Shown: positions 27,471 through 52,582 of the stretch, one piece after another
How positions within the stretch are numbered: position 1 is the first letter of the stretch
How the letters are laid out: the number at the start of each line of letters is the position of its first letter
Assembly (NCBI GenBank): GCA_951406725.2
Contig: OX597830.1
Location: 34,720,001 to 34,784,000, forward strand
Reading direction: 5' to 3'
DNA: 64,000 nucleotides
DNA from: Octopus vulgaris
Lineage: Eukaryota
The notes under the pieces: model-generated
What the model was told of the DNA's origin: nothing
What the model saw: only the letters and a program-made list of their open reading frames with translations
The model's database searches: none
Translations under genes and position numbers: made by a program

Positions 27471-27525
<55 letters not shown>

Positions 27526-27530
27526 TAATA

Positions 27531-27893
27531 AATGCCCTGATGCAGTACCAGGCAGTGGCTCTCGTGGCTTCTTGTCTTAACTGATTGGAAGTGTTATCAT
27601 GTACATTGTTTTGTCTTGGTATAAAAGATGGACTACATCAAATATTCTGCTCAATACCATAGATTTGCTTGTCAGTTGTTTGACATTAACCAATTGAGCA
27701 TGCCCTTTAGTGGCTGACGATATGTGCATCTCTGATCACGAGCAGAAGTAGTGGGGAAGCATCATAGCAATGTGTTGAGAGGGATTCTTTGGGGTTTGAA
27801 TAATTCACCAGTGGAAACATGGGTGTTTCATTCAGCATCCTTTACCAACCCTTATTAAGGGACCTTTTGAGCGGGATGGGTTACTCGACCAGA
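27531..27893 (+). mobile_element. Family D (TAA)n-associated non-coding element, 3'-truncated
   Basis: High identity to 49735-50273; preceded by (TAA)n; cut by a SINE A tail. Confidence 0.85.
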
Positions 27894-27894
27894 A

Positions 27895-28090
27895 GTTTGA
27901 CTGCGACCATGCAGGAGCACCGCCTTTAGTCGAATAAATCGACCCTAGGACTTATTCTTAGTAAGACTAGTACTTATTCTATCGGTCTCTTTTGCCAAAC
28001 CTCTAAGTTACGGGGACGTAAACACAACAGCATCGGTTGTCAAGTGATGTTGGGGGAACAAACACAGACATAAAAACATACACACACACA
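27895..28090 (-). mobile_element. SINE family A 3' half
   Basis: tttgactgcgaccatgcaggagcaccgcctttagtcga...aaacacagac. Confidence 0.85.
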
Positions 28091-32178: not shown

Positions 32179-32400
32179 TGCCTTTGCACAGCTTCTAAAG
32201 CAGAAGATGTACTACAGTTTCAACTGTTCTCTACCAGAAACTAAGGTAACACCTCTTATTTTTCGAGCACTTTCCGGAGAATTCGAGTGGTTTCAAGCAG
32301 TGCTGTTTTCTGCAAGTGCCCTACACTTATTGCAGCCCTTATTTGTTCCATGTACCTCTCAAGATTTTTGCTTACTGTTCCCCAGGGCTCCGAATGACCC
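32179..32400 (-). mobile_element. 3' end of RLE-type LINE (same family as 37684-38425)
   Basis: gcctttgcacagcttctaa...ctaaggtaacacctcttattttt...aagcagtgctgttttctgcaa shared with 37684 onward; encodes the LQKTALL C-terminus. Confidence 0.85.
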
Positions 32401-32513
32401 GTCCTTGTTTTTTTTTGTATCGTCTATCTGGATGTTTTGTTGTCCCTTTTTGTATCACCTAGCTGTCCGGATGTTTTGCGTTCTTGTCCCATTTTGTATT
32501 TTATATATATATA

Positions 32514-34136
32514 CCAACTTGCAGTCCCTCTGACCAACCTCTGGAGAAATTCGTTAGACGCAGGTTATATACCGAAACTGTTTCTATTCCAGTCGGTCTC
32601 CCCGGTTTTCAAACAGGGAAACAGATCCCTCGCAGTCAACTATCGCCCAATCTCACTCACCTCCCACATCATTAAAGTGTTTGAAAGAGTGTTAAGATCA
32701 AGGATAGCTGACTTCCTGGAGACCCACAAACTCCTAAATGCAAATCAGCATGGCTTTCGCTGTGGCAGGGACTGTCTAACACAGCTCTTACACCACATTG
32801 AAGATGTACTCAAAGCCTTGGGAACAGGTTCGAACTCTGACGTCATATATCTTGACTTCAGTAAAGCGTTCGACAGGGTAGACCATAACATCCTACTCTC
32901 AAAATTGGCAAACGTTGGAATCCGTGGAAAAGTTCTACACTGGATTAAGTATTTCCTGGCGGATAGAACACAACATGTTGTAGTTGATGGAGTCCACTCA
33001 AACCCAGCAAAAGTCACCAGCGGTGTTCCCCAGGGAACTGTTTTGGGTCCGCTACTCTTCATAATTTACGTAAACGACCTTTCCAGTGTCGTACATTACT
33101 GCAAAGTGAAAATGTTTGCTGATGACACTAAGCTCTAGCAAATCGTCAATGCAGAAGCAGACCGAACTCAACTCCAGTCTGATCTATATGCTGTGAGTCA
33201 ATGGGCAGACAGAAACAAAATGCAATTGAATGAGGGAAAATTTGAGCTGATGCATTTTGGAAGAAATTCCTCACTAAAACAACCATACTCTGTTCCTTCA
33301 GGGGAACCGCTCACAGCCTCTAACAATATCAGAGACCTGGGTGTAATTGTTGATGACGATCTCAGTTGGAGTGCACACATCAACAAGAAGGTCGATATAG
33401 CTCGTAGGATGAGTTCCTGGATCTTAAGAACTTTCCGGTCCAGAGAACAAGGTGTCATCATACCACTTTTTTCCTCCATTGTACGGCCACACCTTGAATA
33501 CTTCTGCCCACTGTGGTCTCCTCACACAAGACAAAACATCTCCAGAATTGAGTCACCCCAGAGGGCACTCACTAAACATATTGAAGGCTTGGCTGCTCTC
33601 GATTATTGGGATCGCCTTAAAGCCTTGAAACTTTACTCCCTCCAGCGTCGCCGTGAGCGGTACATCATTTGTACGATGTGGAAAATATACCGCCAACTTT
33701 GCCCAAACGACCTAAACATTAGCTTCAAGGTTCATCCAAGACTTGGACCACGGGCTATACGGCGCCTGCCCAATTCAAGATCACAACATACATGTACACT
33801 GCAACATAATTTCTTTTCCTCAACTGGCCCTGCCCTATTTAACATTGTCCCGAGGGAGATCAAAGAGGAAAAGGATCCCATCAACTTTAAACAGAGTCTG
33901 GACAGATTCCTTCAAAGAATACCAGATAAGCCACCCATAATTGGATACAACTCACTACCAACAAGAACTCACTACTTGAACAAAACTGGATACAACTCAC
34001 CCAACAAGAACTCACTACTTGAACAAAACTTGACTTAAACAGGATTCGAATAATCCTATCAGGTGGTGCTATTAAGTTAGACATGGCCTGGACCAATCTT
34101 TGGTCGAAACATATCTAAGTTTATCTAAGTCTAAGT
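32514..34136 (+). mobile_element. 5'-truncated CR1/L2-like LINE; RT domain with a single in-frame stop at 33136-33138
   Basis: NYRPISLTS, QHGFR, YLDFSKAFDRVDH, SGVPQGTVLGPLLF, FADDTKL, RDLGVIVD, VRPHLEY, LYSLQRRRER; ORFs 32437-33138 and 33193-34038 share a frame; 3' stem-loop gacc/ggtc and (tctaagt)n tail; flanked by (TA)n. Confidence 0.95.
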
Positions 34137-35958: not shown

Positions 35959-36149
35959 TATATACACACATATTCAACGAGAAAGAATGGGAAAGACAAA
36001 CTGAGGGAGAGAGGGAGAGAGAGGTGGGGAACGAGTAAGTGAGAGAAAGGAATTAGAATTTCTATAAAGGTATAAACTATAGCGAAAAGAAAAAGAAAAA
36101 AACTCAATATTTTTCTTTTCTTTTCAGAGTAATACAAACAATTATGAAA

Positions 36150-36264
36150 GCTGAATGAAATCGGTATAAAAAATTACTATAGTTTCATCTTTTGATTCTT
36201 CAGATTGTAATCCGAAGAATTAAAGGATGAAGCTATAGTAATTTTAATACCAATTTTATTCAGC
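36150..36264. repeat. ~57-bp-arm imperfect palindrome containing a hammerhead pair
   Basis: gctgaatgaaatcggtat...ttcttcagatt-gt-aatccgaagaa...ataccaattttattcagc. Confidence 0.85.
36172..36206 (-). ncRNA. Minimal type I hammerhead ribozyme motif
   Basis: Minus strand aau CUGAAGA auc-aaaa-gau GAAA cuauag UA auu; the + strand mirror (36209-36243) has core mutations CCGAAGA and GAAG. Confidence 0.65.
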
Positions 36265-36345
36265 GTTTTTCTATAGTTTGCTAAGTAGCTAGCTAGATAT
36301 ACATCAAACTACACATCTATTTATCTATCTATCTAATATATATTC

Positions 36346-36914: not shown

Positions 36915-37428
36915 TGAGTGCGAGAGCAGTTCATGCCATCAAAGTGACACTGGGGTAAAATGTACGAAGCCCAATATACCCATCATGACTACCCGTCTGA
37001 TAAGGGTACACCAGGCACATGCATCACAACCATATGTGCGCGACATGGTGATCTCATATCAAGATAAACAGCACATGACCTTGCAGGTGGGGCTTTTTCT
37101 TCAGGTTGAGTAACCCATCCTGCTCAAAAGGTCCCTGAATAAGGTTTGTTTTAAGGATGATGAACAAAACACCTATGTTTCCAAAGGTGAATTATTAAAA
37201 CCCCAAAGAATCCCTCTCAACACATGGCTATGATGCTCCCCCACTACTTCTGCTCGTGATCAGAGATGCACATATCATCAGCCACTAAGGGACATACTCA
37301 ACTGGTTAAGGTCAAACAATTGACAAGCAAATCTGTGGTATTGAGCAGAATATTTGCTGTAGCCCATCTTTTATACCAGGACAAAACAATGTACATGATA
37401 ACACTCCCAATCAGTTAAGATCAGAAGC
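36915..37428 (-). mobile_element. Family D element between (TTA)n tracts
   Basis: Reverse complement of 49750-50273 with high identity. Confidence 0.9.
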
Positions 37429-37683: not shown

Positions 37684-38425
37684 GCCTTTGCACAGCTTCT
37701 AACGCTGGAGATGTATTGCGTTGTCAGCTGTTCACTACCAGTGAACTAAGGTAACACCTCTTATTTTTCCAGCACCTTCAGGAGTATTTGAGCGTTTCCA
37801 AGCAGTGCTGTTTTCTGCAAATGCTCCACTCTTTTTGCAGCCCCCATTTGTTCCATGTACTTCTCGAGATTTTTACTCACTGTTCTCAGTACTCCGACAA
37901 TTATTGGTACTACTACCACTTTTTACATCGACCACAACTGCTTAACTTTCCAAGCTAACCTGTCATATCTCTTGACTTTTCTTTCTTCCTTATCGCATAC
38001 CTTGTTGTCAGCTGGGCATGCTATATCTATGATCCAGCATAGTTTGTTTTCTTTCTCAATTAAGACTATGTTTGGCTTCCTATTCTCCATTTCATGGTCG
38101 CACTGAACCATAAAATCCCATAGGATCTTTGCATTACTATTTTCGATGATGCCTTCAAGTTTGTGGTCGTACCAATTTTTTGCTCTGTCAAATCTATACT
38201 TGCTGCAAAGTGTCCAATAGACAAACCTGGCTATATTGTCGTGGCGTCTCTTATATTCCTTCTGGACTAGTGGCTTTACATTGGCTGGTAATAGGCCATA
38301 CGGCTTCACCGTTTTGTCCACAGATTTTACATTTGTCACTTTCTGCTGTGTTGTCTATTCTGTGTTTTATGTAGTTTGTTAGTGCTTGCTCTTATGCAGC
38401 ACAGATTAGAGCCTCCGTTTCTGGT
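37684..38425 (-). mobile_element. RLE-type (R4/Dong-like) LINE 3' fragment: zinc knuckle + endonuclease
   Basis: ETEALICAA*EQAL, CKICGQNGE (CCHC remnant), YKRRHDNIA, KILWDF, RKPNIV, IIDIACP, LQKTALL; frameshift and stops; TAA-type microsatellites on both sides. Confidence 0.92.
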
Positions 38426-47955: not shown

Positions 47956-48160
47956 CACACGCACATATCCATACATTCATGCATATACACATACATACAT
48001 ATACACACACGCACGCATGCATACATATACACACGCACATAGATACATACATACACACATGCATACTTACATACATACACACACGTACATACATACATCC
48101 ATCCATCCATACATACATATACATATACATATACACACACGCACGCATGCAGGGTGTGTA

Positions 48161-48212
<52 letters not shown>

Positions 48213-48217
<5 letters not shown>

Positions 48218-48681
48218 ATCTATATTATTACCCTTTTGATTATATTCATATATTACTTGATAGATTTATTCGTAAAATTTTTTCCCGGCATACCCTATAT
48301 CGCCGGGTAGATTTTGCGTCTGCGCAGAGATTTGAAAATTTAAGATCTGCAAGTTGTTTAGATCAACACATGGTCTAACGCGCAGCGCATCTCGATTTAA
48401 CTTAGGCGTCCCGCTGATGAAACCGGCCTTAGCAAACATATTCTGTCTGTTTTACTAGAAAGAGGTAGAAACTGATCAGTCCGGAATGTATCGTTATTGG
48501 TAAATGTTTTTGATTTTCACTCTCGATAAATTTATCCCTTTTTTGTGTCCCTAGCACTTGGCATCCTTATTTAGGAGCCCTTAATTATATTTTTATATGA
48601 ATAATATTTTGTCTAATGACTAATTCGTCCTTTGTGCTGAGCCACTGGTAGTAATCTATGTTATTACCCTTTTGATTATAT
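48213..48681 (+). mobile_element. 436-bp hammerhead-containing unit with 33-bp terminal direct repeat (retrozyme/pLTR-like), inserted in (TA)n
   Basis: tagtaatctat(a/g)ttattacccttttgattatat at 48213 and 48649; (TA)n on both sides; internal hairpins and a hammerhead. Confidence 0.8.
48406..48489 (+). ncRNA. Type I hammerhead ribozyme motif
   Basis: gcgucccg CUGAUGA a acc...ggu a GAAA cugaucag UC cggaaugu: 8-bp stem I with one mismatch, long stem II, palindromic stem III, GUC cleavage triplet. Confidence 0.75.
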
Positions 48682-48885
48682 ATATATATATATATATATA
48701 CATACAATAATAAATATTAGGGAATAAATCCAAATTTACAGGGAAAAAAATCAGATTTAGGATTAAATCCAATTTTATAGTAAAATATTATAAAATATTA
48801 TTAGAGACAAAACCACTATTTTGCAAAACAAACAAGGAACGACTTAATCAATACATAAAATTTTAATAAATAGTCAAAAAAACCG

Positions 48886-48928
48886 CCACTACAATTGTTT
48901 CTTGTCTTGATCGACAATCTTCAGGTGG
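48886..48928 (-). ncRNA. Minimal type I hammerhead ribozyme motif (mirror copy)
   Basis: Exact reverse complement of 48986-49028. Confidence 0.85.
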
Positions 48929-48985
48929 ACTTCCAATAAGTCAGTTTCAAATTATGAAATAATTTGAAACTGACTTATTGGAAGT

Positions 48986-49028
48986 CCACCTGAAGATTGT
49001 CGATCAAGACAAGAAACAATTGTAGTGG
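48986..49028 (+). ncRNA. Minimal type I hammerhead ribozyme motif
   Basis: ccac CUGAAGA uuguc-gaucaa-gacaa GAAA caauug UA gugg: intact core, stems I and II paired, palindromic stem III, GUA site. Confidence 0.85.
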
Positions 49029-49701
49029 CGGTTTTTTTGACTATTTATTAAAATTTTATGTATTGATTAAGTCTTTCCTTGTTTGTTTTGCAAAATAGTG
49101 GTTTTGTCTCTAATAATATTTTATATATACATACATATATATATATATATATGTATGTACGCATGTGTGTGTATATATGCATGCGTGCGTGTGTATATGT
49201 ATGTTTTGTATAAGCACATGCAGGTACGTACATACATACATACACACCTACACTATGAAGTGTAATAGCTTGTTATGGCGGTGATATTGTTTGAGTCCCA
49301 GTAAGCGAAGGAGGTAGTGATGGGTTTTTATAAGTAGTAAGGTGCTGGCGGCCAACATTTTATAGTTTATTCTATTTTCTTTTACTTTTTTAATGAAATT
49401 TTTTTAAAATTCGTATGAATCAGCGCATGCGCTTTAGTGCAGGTAATTATCGTCGTCGTCGCCTCCAAAACTCCAATGACTTTCAGCAGCAAAGAAACAA
49501 TAGCCACCAGAAACGGCAAATAAACATCCCCGCTGCCGCTGTTGCCACCATTTTCTATAAACGTTTGCTGTATTTTCGTTCTGCCTTCTCTGGATTTCTT
49601 TTCCACTTTTTCATTTGAGTTGCATCCCTTAATGTGTGGAAATAAGCAGGAAAGTATGAATATTTATATTGATTAATATATATATATATACAATAATAGT
49701 A

Positions 49702-49734
<33 letters not shown>

Positions 49735-50273
49735 CAGGCAGTGGCTCTCATGGCTTCTGATCTTAACTGATTGGAAGTGTTATCATGTACATTGGTTTGT
49801 CTTGGTATAAAAGATGGGCTACAGCAAATATTTTGCTCAAAATCACAGATTTGCTTGTCAGTTGTTTGACCTTAAACAGTTGAGCATGTCCCTTAGTGGC
49901 TGACGATATGTGCATCTCTGATCACGAGCAGAAGTAGTGGGGGAGCATCATAGCCATGTGTTGAGAGGAATTCTTTGGGATTTGAATAATTTACCTCTGG
50001 AAACATGGGTGGTTCTTTCAACATCCTTAAACAACCCTTATTCAGGGACCTTTTGAGCGGGATGGGTTACTCAACCTGAAGAAAATTCTAACTGGGCCCC
50101 ACCTGCAAGGTCATGTGCTGTTTATCTTGATATGAGATCACCATGTCGCGCACATATGGTTGTGATGCATGTGCCTGGTGTACCCTTATCAGACGGGTAG
50201 TCATGATGGGTATATTGGGCTTCGTATATTTTACCCCAGTGTCACTTTGATGGCATGAACTGCTCTCTCACTC
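49735..50273 (+). mobile_element. Family D element between (TAA)n tracts
   Basis: Third copy in the window; no ORF and no clear tRNA head; ends ctctctcactc-aataataa. Confidence 0.9.
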
Positions 50274-51549: not shown

Positions 51550-52111
<562 letters not shown>

Positions 52112-52582
52112 CCTTTGAAACTTCCCAATTCAAACAGACAGAAAAATCGACTCCAGTCGACCAGACATTGTGTTCAAGGAATACTACAACAGAGGAACTT
52201 GTCTGTCCCACAAGATCAAAATGTCTCAAGAAGAGAATGCCAGAAGCTTTCTCTCTATAAAGATCTGCAAACTGAAATCATAAAAATGTGGAAGCTTAGT
52301 ACTACGATAATTCCGGGAGTAATTGGTGCGTTGGCAATGATAAAGAAGGGAGCTGAGAACTATATTAAGCTACTGCCTGGTGACTCCAGTTTCCGCAAAC
52401 TACAAAAGATAACCTTGATGTGTACAACCCATATACTACGGAAACCATTAAAATGGAATAACCATAGTACTAGTTTTAGTATGCATAGCAAAACAAAAGT
52501 GTCCATGCTACTCTTAACCTCCGGAGGATGCCCGGCACAAATGCAGCTGAAATAAAGTTATAATGAAAGGAAACCATGAATA
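52112..52582 (+). mobile_element. RLE-type LINE 3' fragment
   Basis: PIQTDRKIDSSRPDIV, KLSLYKDLQTEIIKMWKL, VIGALAMIKKG, LQKITLMCTTHILRK; (TAA)n at both ends. Confidence 0.9.

What the first reader, a model, noticed from the sequence alone, without database searches (positions are those of the whole stretch)
48213..48681. 436-nt terminally redundant, structured hammerhead unit: candidate retrozyme copied from a circular or multimeric RNA
Seen: 33-bp direct repeats at 48213 and 48649 (one mismatch) lie inside (TA)n flanks, so they look like element sequence rather than a target duplication. There is no meaningful ORF. Hairpins cccggc/gccggg (~48283-48306) and tgcgtctgcgc/gcgcagcgca precede a type I hammerhead with a GUC site (cleavage after 48481). 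Known: metazoan non-LTR retrozymes are few-hundred-nt hammerhead monomers that accumulate as circRNA, and Penelope pLTRs also form partial tandems. Inference: reverse transcription ran slightly more than once round a 436-nt template. Caveat: the first stem II pair is A-A here, so this copy may be inactive.
Basis: partly seen in the sequence, partly recalled or inferred. Interest (0 to 1): 0.75.

Follow-up and report, generated by a model that had tools for sequence, protein, structure and literature searches.

The report
Hammerhead retrozyme copy with Penelope-sized tail
This is an aged copy of a multi-copy, non-coding 436-base unit that carries a hammerhead ribozyme motif, repeats its first ~30 bases at its end and sits in a TA microsatellite; it was likely written into the genome by a Penelope-type reverse transcriptase copying a circular (or tandem) RNA once round, a new example of a known kind of animal mobile element.

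Summary
Observation confirmed: direct repeats 436 bases apart (32/33; 25/26 without TA-compatible letters) between (TA)n runs, no ORF, and a type I hammerhead (cleavage after 48481) with a palindromic helix III. Contigs of 4 public runs show a multi-copy family. Its variants keep the ribozyme helices, including a two-sided change in helix III, so the motif looks selected. In 2 of 4 runs (RNA by guess, one study) a contig runs from the unit's end back into its start, 436 back and past the repeat: the unit is closed (circle or tandem), and the repeat is not a target duplication. The insert spans the cleavage site intact, so a cleaved linear monomer cannot have been the template without a template jump. 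Repeat size and TA target match the Penelope-like-element (PLE) 'tail' signature. Corrections: the whole-unit fold is only weakly significant; the A-A at stem II is probably family-wide; the lesions private to this copy are at 48485 and 48454. Circularity, cleavage and the PLE partner are not shown. Verdict: new member of the non-LTR retrozyme / non-autonomous PLE kind; interest 0.4.

The parts
48159..48214 (.). (TA)28 left flank, likely the insertion target
48213..48245 (+). Left copy of the terminal repeat (48215-48240 unambiguous); start of the 436-nt unit
48215..48650 (+). One 436-nt non-coding unit, 36% GC
   Evidence: joint 436 back
48241..48253 (+). Two short AT patches in the unit; other copies end here into (AT)n (5 contigs of run X20 behind 48253); likely priming region
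   Evidence: table 7; priming is inferred
48284..48307 (+). GC-rich hairpin 1
   Evidence: pair probability 1.0
48315..48389 (+).
48406..48489 (+). Type I hammerhead motif: helix I 48406-48413/48482-48489, CUGA box 48414-48420, helix II 48422-48424/48464-48466 with distal stem 48430-48436/48451-48457, GAAA 48468-48471, predicted cleavage after 48481
   Evidence: family variants
48471..48480 (+). 10-nt palindromic helix III, predicted to pair between two ribozyme copies (-13.6 kcal/mol duplex; no self-fold)
   Evidence: two-sided change
48649..48681 (+). Right copy of the terminal repeat (48651-48676 unambiguous); interpreted as a PLE-type tail
   Evidence: tail size
48677..48700 (.). 24-nt TA run, right flank, separating this insert from a second hammerhead-bearing insert

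Best explanation
The insert is an aged, dispersed copy of a multi-copy non-coding family built on a closed 436-nt unit with a type I hammerhead motif, and it was likely made by a Penelope-like element's endonuclease and reverse transcriptase copying a circular monomer RNA once round plus a 26-33 nt tail into a (TA)n run. Steps. (1) Inferred: master loci with two or more units are transcribed. (2) Predicted: hammerheads cut after the 48481 position, probably as dimers through the palindromic helix III, and the monomer is ligated to a circle, as shown for coral, mussel and axolotl retrozymes (PMC7229834). (3) Inferred: a PLE enzyme nicks (TA)n DNA and starts reverse transcription inside the RNA at the AT patches about 200 nt 3' of the cleavage site. 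(4) Shown by the anatomy: the copy runs across the intact cleavage site, through one whole unit and 26-33 nt further. (5) Inferred: the far end is set by the tail, giving the terminal repeat. (6) Shown: this copy differs from the majority letter of the laid contigs at about ten listed positions; predicted: it no longer folds into the ribozyme.
For: Family: 537, 25, 22 and 72 contigs laid from 4 of 4 runs. Closed unit: joint 48671 to 48236, 436 back, in X1 (1 contig, 44 letters on the short side) and X2 (one 382-nt contig covering 48426-48671 and then 48236-48354, 109 nt past the repeat). Selection on the ribozyme: 12 of the 40 listed changes fall in 48406-48489 and none in the 11 invariant core positions; 48485 and 48454 carry G in 99.6-100% of depth and restore C-G pairs; one subfamily changes 48473 and 48478 together, drops the two central letters and stays palindromic, with A at position 17. 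Variable 3' ends into (AT)n (5 contigs behind 48253 in X20) and a copy starting at 48551 near an (AT)7 run (1 contig, X2) fit internal priming and 5' truncation. PLE signatures in print: 30-40 bp tail and (TA)n bias (PMC8557442), 31-bp tail (PMC3846280), internal RT start sites that bound the tail and AT-rich cleavage (PMC11167929), palindromic helix III and dimers (PMC4209133). A head-to-head hammerhead palindrome of PLE-type shape lies in the same microsatellite.
Against: No run laid is on record as RNA; contigs cannot tell circle from tandem; both joints come from one study and one divergent subfamily; none is listed for X20 or X3. A repeat of about 30 nt or more could let an assembler close a linear, terminally redundant copy into a loop (recalled behaviour of 31-mer graphs; untested). 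In the anole PLE, hammerhead mutants did not affect insertion and unprocessed RNA was the main substrate. G at 48660 is not private (22% of X20 depth), which would fit two different units in one tandem template better than one circle. The conserved G10.1-C11.1 pair of PLE hammerheads is absent; two subfamily changes (48466, 48486) break pairs unless partners that did not lay also changed. In this copy the ribozyme helices have probability 0-0.15. No PLE gene motif was found in the window and no genome was available.
Confidence: 0.48

Rival explanations
1. Same family and same PLE machinery, but the template is an uncleaved tandem (multimeric) transcript, not a circle: the insert is a 5'-truncated partial tandem (one unit plus tail), and the hammerhead is dispensable for insertion.
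For: Explains the joint, the intact cleavage site and the tail equally well. PLEs form partial tandems; unprocessed RNA was the main substrate in vitro. The repeat mismatch at 48660 matches a variant at 22% of X20 depth.
Against: Needs a reason why truncation fell 26-33 nt beyond exactly one unit; helix conservation says the ribozyme is used; characterised retrozymes accumulate as circles.
Confidence: 0.33
2. A small element with fixed ends (internal-deletion derivative of a PLE, or solo terminal repeat of a longer coding element) that is copied as is; the head-to-tail contigs are assembly loops.
For: No joint listed in the largest run X20 or in X3; the repeat is close to the 31-letter word size used by the tool's index (tool text); other sequence abuts 48591-48592 in 4 contigs of X20 and 1 of X2.
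Against: 3' ends vary (48676-48681 here, the equivalent of 48683-48689 in 5 X20 contigs); two contigs cross the repeat unbroken at depth 15.7 and 31.3; what follows the repeat is the unit's own start, with no ORF.
Confidence: 0.11
3. DNA-level origin: a piece of a tandem (satellite) array, excised as a DNA circle or by unequal exchange and re-inserted in the microsatellite without reverse transcription.
For: Gives a 1.07-mer with an intact cleavage site; satellite-type amplification is proposed for retrozymes (bioRxiv 10.64898/2026.07.22.740005).
Against: Does not predict both ends in the same AT-patch region, clustered 3' ends into (AT)n, or a 5'-truncated copy.
Confidence: 0.06
4. The 33-mer is a true target-site duplication around a 403-nt element.
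For: Retrozyme TSDs are described as larger than 4 bp when present (PMC7229834).
Against: The repeat is carried by many family contigs (22 with another letter at 48660 in X20 alone) and runs on into the unit's start in the joint contigs.
Confidence: 0.02

Closest known systems
Metazoan non-LTR retrozymes (Cervera and de la Pena 2020, PMC7229834; mussel 350-390 bp, axolotl 330/350 bp, coral 220-245 bp)
   Same: Non-coding unit of a few hundred bases, GC under 50%, type I hammerhead, multi-copy, head-to-tail closure; axolotl HHR_Amex2 also has a mismatch (U-U) at the base of helix II.
   Different: This locus is a 1.07-mer, not a tandem; helix III is a 10-nt palindrome; A-A at the base of a long helix II; (TA)n target and 26-33 bp terminal repeat were not described in the sections I read; circles and cleavage untested here.
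Penelope-like elements, pLTR and tail (PMC8557442, PMC3846280, PMC11167929, PMC4209133)
   Same: Hammerhead with palindromic helix III and long helix II, possible extra base after A9, 30-40 bp 3' extension, (TA)n target, 5' truncation.
   Different: No RT or GIY-YIG ORF; the tail is the unit's own start, not the start of an ORF; G10.1-C11.1 absent; homology to an autonomous pLTR could not be tested.
Vertebrate retrozyme monomers as non-autonomous PLE derivatives (bioRxiv 10.64898/2026.07.22.740005)
   Same: Solo monomers dispersed over chromosomes; PLE origin argued from co-occurrence and pLTR homology.
   Different: Their 'active' class needs two consecutive hammerhead units, not met at this locus; the three parts I read do not describe insertion ends or tails.
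Non-autonomous Chlamys elements such as MRC1 (PMC8557442)
   Same: Non-autonomous PLE derivatives with pLTRs, head-to-tail copies and microsatellite targets.
   Different: Green algae; most Chlamys and Naiad elements lack canonical hammerheads.

Membership tests
Hammerhead ribozyme, type I | Core C3 U4 G5 A6 N7 G8 A9, G12 A13 A14, A15.1-U16.1, H17 with three helices | tested here: met
   no listed change in the 11 invariant positions among 40 rows shown, 27 hidden
Hammerhead ribozyme, type I | Base pair 10.1-11.1 next to the core | tested here: not met
   A48421 faces A48467; natural U-U exceptions are active (PMC3088659; PMC7229834); A-A not found in passages read
Hammerhead ribozyme, type I | Self-cleavage | not testable with these tools
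   needs an assay; predicted fold of this copy is unfavourable
Non-LTR retrozyme | Unit of about 150-450 bp, GC under 50%, no ORF | tested here: met
   436 nt, 36% GC, longest ATG frame 57 aa
Non-LTR retrozyme | Multi-copy family | tested here: met
   537, 25, 22, 72 contigs laid in 4 of 4 runs; single copy in this window
Non-LTR retrozyme | Genomic tandem repeats (two or more hammerhead units) | tested here: inconclusive
   not at this locus (1.07 units); head-to-tail joint in 2 of 4 runs, none listed in X20; no genome
Non-LTR retrozyme | Accumulates as circular RNA | not testable with these tools
   only contigs were available; they cannot tell circle from tandem
Non-LTR retrozyme | No LTR, primer binding site or polypurine tract | tested here: inconclusive
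   no long repeat beyond 33 bp, no tRNA gene; PBS and PPT not searched
Non-LTR retrozyme | Loop 1-loop 2 tertiary contacts of canonical type I motifs | not tested
   not examined; mussel retrozymes lack most of them
Autonomous Penelope-like element | ORF with RT and GIY-YIG endonuclease | tested here: not met
   no ORF in the unit; recalled motif scan of the six frames of the window found none; the one RT found in 6 ORFs scanned lies at 32398-33135
PLE-mobilised insertion | 30-40 bp tail at one end | tested here: inconclusive
   26-33 bp here, up to 41 by register in other copies; size fits, identity as a tail is inferred
PLE-mobilised insertion | Insertion in (TA)n or AT-rich DNA | tested here: met
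   both flanks; (AT)n behind 5 other ends in X20
PLE-mobilised insertion | Hammerhead with palindromic helix III | tested here: met
PLE-mobilised insertion | Shared pLTR or 3' sequence with an autonomous PLE of the same genome | not testable with these tools
   no genome held; no homology to the neighbouring insert
tRNA-derived SINE | tRNA head with internal promoter boxes | tested here: not met
   no tRNA gene; none of 74 matches to a recalled A-box motif falls in 48213-48681

The most novel reading that the evidence does not exclude
Solo copies of this family are exact 'one lap plus tail' products: a Penelope-type enzyme primes on a circular ribozyme RNA and stops at the other edge of the tail, so the terminal repeat is the PLE tail written twice. 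That would be a direct footprint of the long-proposed PLE-retrozyme link and of a circular template, in a family whose hammerhead works with an A-A at the base of helix II. The 'large TSDs' reported for animal retrozymes could then be tails. One divergent subfamily that makes up half or more of the depth at the ribozyme in the three RNA-guess runs could be the live circle.
Probability: 0.3. Interest if true: 0.65.

Novelty: new member of a known kind. Interest (0 to 1): 0.4.

Why it matters
Which enzyme moves animal retrozymes, and whether the circle is the real template, are open: PMC7229834 names PLEs as candidates and the 2026 preprint says the mechanism remains to be worked out. A dispersed family whose copies keep a tail-sized terminal repeat offers a purely computational test: fixed 5' end, clustered 3' ends and identity of the two repeats separate a circular from a tandem template. 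If active, the A-A helix II variant would widen hammerhead search descriptors; Rfam missed this motif. As an element it is otherwise a member of a described kind.

Tried and rejected
Whole genome: none held, so no genome-wide copy alignment or empty site. Rfam: no hit at gathering score in the window; only hairpin-type matches below gathering score near the locus. Other copies in the window: none. Metagenome scan with one 20-nt pattern: 0 matches; second scan not used. Earlier findings: nothing in 4 look-ups. Run search: no RNA holder listed on record; 20 of 24 rows held small shares (0.04-0.20); 4 of 24 were laid, the other 20 are no evidence. Absence of a joint in X20 and X3, and lack of cover of the TA flanks in X1, are not taken as evidence: contigs show presence only, X20 was read to about 76%, and 27 change rows, 7 indel rows, 82 loose ends and 631 pieces were not shown. 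Depth was not used as copy number or expression. Whether other copies share the left end could not be read from the rows shown. Promoter scan is bacterial and uninformative. Homology between the unit, the neighbouring palindrome and the remnant at 36.1-36.3 kb: only short AT-rich matches, best E 0.025. 'Highly structured unit' rejected as stated. tRNA SINE rejected. PMC8490949 passages added nothing. PMC5785218 on dimeric PLE hammerheads is not held and the supplement of PMC7229834 was unreadable; both may list A-A variants, mollusc families or insertion ends that bear on novelty.

Full report
Setting. The window is 36% GC, has 127 tandem-repeat rows and a broken LINE-type RT gene at 32398-34038 (Pfam RVT_1, E 5e-27, in 1 of 6 ORFs scanned). 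It is an animal-type genome; my impression that it is a cephalopod rests on recalled dispersed repeats and was not tested.

1. The observation. Two direct repeats lie 436 bases apart, 48213-48245 and 48649-48681, with one mismatch. Seven of the 33 letters could equally be TA flank: the non-TA stretch is 48215-48676, so the redundancy is 26-33 bp. The 26-mer occurs twice in the window; 0 of 100 shuffles gave two matches. There is no ORF beyond 57 aa from ATG, also across the junction. A type I hammerhead is present: CUGA box 48414-48420, GAAA 48468-48471, predicted cut after 48481; helix I has 7 of 8 pairs, helix II 3 pairs under an A-A plus a distal stem (6 of 7 pairs), helix III is a 10-nt palindrome that cannot fold alone but gives a -13.6 kcal/mol duplex with a second copy. 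My descriptor gave 6 hits in the window against 0.30 per shuffle; Rfam found none. 'Structured' needs trimming: the whole unit gives z -1.45 linear (7 of 100; 10 of 150) and -2.3 to -2.9 circular (4 of 150; 0 of 60); the signal sits in 48275-48400 (z -3.4, 0 of 200). In this copy the ribozyme helices have probability 0-0.15 and a rival hairpin (48441-48470) hides the GAAA box at 0.54-0.65.

2. The family. The run search listed 24 runs, 20 with small word shares, none on record as RNA. I laid 4 of them at 80% likeness: X20 (kind not on record; I take it for DNA from its size; about 76% read) and X1-X3 (RNA by the tool's guess, one study). 537, 25, 22 and 72 contigs were laid, so this is a multi-copy family. 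At about ten listed positions (48292, 48310, 48384, 48411, 48454, 48485, 48497, 48593, 48630, 48640) the window differs from 82-100% of X20 depth: an aged copy.

3. The ribozyme looks selected. Of 40 change rows shown (27 hidden), 12 fall in 48406-48489 and none in the 11 invariant core positions. The family has G at 48485 (7740 of 7774 depth in X20, all depth in X1-X3) and at 48454 (all depth in 4 of 4 runs), restoring C-G pairs in helix I and distal helix II. 48411 T pairs with 48484 G or A; 48424 T with 48464 G or A. One subfamily, seen as a single contig in each of X1, X2 and X3, changes 48473 and 48478 together, loses the two central letters, stays palindromic, and has A at position 17, which the core allows. 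Against: its changes at 48466 and 48486 break pairs unless partners in 48355-48425, which did not lay, changed too; 48425 is unpaired. No other letter is listed at 48421 or 48467, and a 12-letter loose end in X20 and X3 keeps A after the CUGA box, so the A-A is probably family-wide; hidden rows leave this open. PLE hammerheads often have an extra base after A9 but a conserved G10.1-C11.1 (PMC4209133); U-U at this place is tolerated in nature (PMC3088659; PMC7229834). I saw no A-A example.

4. The unit is closed. One search lists one joint: 48671 to 48236, 436 back, in X1 (one contig, 44 letters on the short side) and X2 (one 382-nt contig over 48426-48671 and then 48236-48354, 109 nt past the repeat). 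Both belong to the divergent subfamily and one study; none is listed for X20 or X3. The repeat is thus element sequence that leads into the unit's own start: not a target duplication, and not the edge of a coding element, at least for that subfamily. Contigs cannot tell circle from tandem, and a repeat near the assembler's word size could close a linear copy into a loop; that the contigs cross unbroken argues against this, by my recalled reading of such graphs.

5. How the insert was made. The cut site lies in mid-insert and is intact. A cleaved linear monomer would start at the 48482 position, and priming at the right end would copy only 200 nt. The template therefore held more than one unit: a circle, an uncleaved tandem, or a jump. 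Both ends fall in one 26-41 nt region. PLE insertions carry an optional 30-40 bp tail and favour (TA)n (PMC8557442; 31 bp in PMC3846280); in the anole element the tail lies between two internal RT start sites and the enzyme cuts AT-rich DNA on both strands (PMC11167929). Here 5 contigs of X20 end into (AT)n behind 48253, 7-8 nt further than this copy in register, and one contig of X2 starts at 48551 near an (AT)7 run: variable 3' ends at AT patches and 5' truncation. I read the terminal repeat as a PLE tail (inferred). A second, unrelated insert next door (arms 48789-48955 and 48959-49125, one mismatch, a hammerhead on each arm reading outward) has the head-to-head shape described for PLEs, so PLE-type traffic reaches this microsatellite.

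6. Circle or tandem. For the circle: kept helices, and circles are the main form in coral, mussel and axolotl retrozymes. For the tandem: hammerhead mutants did not affect insertion in vitro, and the one mismatch between the repeats matches a letter held by 22% of X20 depth at 48660, whereas one circle would give identical repeats; later mutation could also explain it. I put the circle at 0.48, the tandem at 0.33, a fixed-end element with assembly loops at 0.11, DNA-level origin at 0.06, TSD at 0.02. Identity as a non-autonomous hammerhead unit copied from a more-than-unit RNA (first two) is about 0.8.

7. Known systems and novelty. It works like a non-LTR retrozyme and meets size, GC, non-coding, multi-copy and hammerhead-core tests; genomic tandems are inconclusive, circles and cleavage untestable, the 10.1-11.1 pair not met. 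It is not an autonomous PLE. Solo monomers and a PLE origin are in print (bioRxiv 10.64898/2026.07.22.740005), as is more-than-unit copying of circles as a proposal. Ten searches showed no cephalopod retrozyme and no account of tail-sized terminal repeats on retrozymes; the library lacks most subscription papers, and an Octopus vulgaris repeat annotation lists 31 recently active PLE families and has no occurrence of 'ribozyme' (PMC13282606).

What I saw of each paper: 10.64898/2026.07.22.740005, parts 1-3 of 5 (abstract to discussion); PMC11167929 and PMC4209133, parts 1-2 of 4; PMC7229834, passages, results parts 1-2 of 3, discussion, supplement unreadable; PMC8557442, passages and section 6; PMC3088659, PMC3846280, PMC7761336, PMC8969392, PMC6765202, PMC13282606, PMC8490949, passages only; PMC5785218 not held.

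Verdict. A real, selected hammerhead unit; a decayed solo copy of a closed 436-nt family; a new member of a known kind, with an end structure that makes the PLE-and-circle question testable. Interest 0.4.

Noticed in passing
window 48701-49134: Second insert in the same microsatellite: 167-bp arms (48789-48955, 48959-49125; one mismatch, 3-nt spacer), each with a type I hammerhead reading outward (CUGA at 48924 minus, 48990 plus; palindromic helix III; cuts after 48890 and 49024); the left arm runs 88 nt further and holds a 39-nt-spaced imperfect repeat. Head-to-head PLE-type fragment, not homologous to the finding.
   Followed up: partly
window 36147-36267: Older palindrome (84% between arms) with a hammerhead-like motif at 36203 on the minus strand and a decayed one on the plus strand, between TA-rich runs; likely another inverted PLE remnant.
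   Followed up: partly
window 27503-27895, 37099-37428, 49702-50081: Three copies of a dispersed repeat (89-91% alike); two match my hammerhead descriptor with a 93-nt helix II region (27714 plus, 37281 minus). Possibly chance within one family.
   Followed up: no
window 48426-48608 in runs X1-X3: One divergent subfamily makes up 49-79% of depth at 48464 in the three RNA-guess runs; several of its letters have zero depth in X20, others about 1000. Could be the expressed master or a laying artefact.
   Followed up: partly
window 48590-48592: Other sequence, up to 22 letters, abuts here in 4 contigs of X20 and 1 of X2; the divergent subfamily also lays twice on 48590-48608. An insertion variant or another element sharing the 3' 90 nt.
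   Followed up: no
   Followed up: no
window 32398-34038: LINE-type reverse transcriptase frame split by one stop, about 545 codons, Pfam RVT_1; CR1/L2-like by recall.
   Followed up: partly
window 37923-38354 and 51700-52560 (minus): Fragments resembling the C-terminus of R4/Dong-type LINE proteins (by recall; no Pfam hit for the first) next to (TAA)n runs.
   Followed up: no
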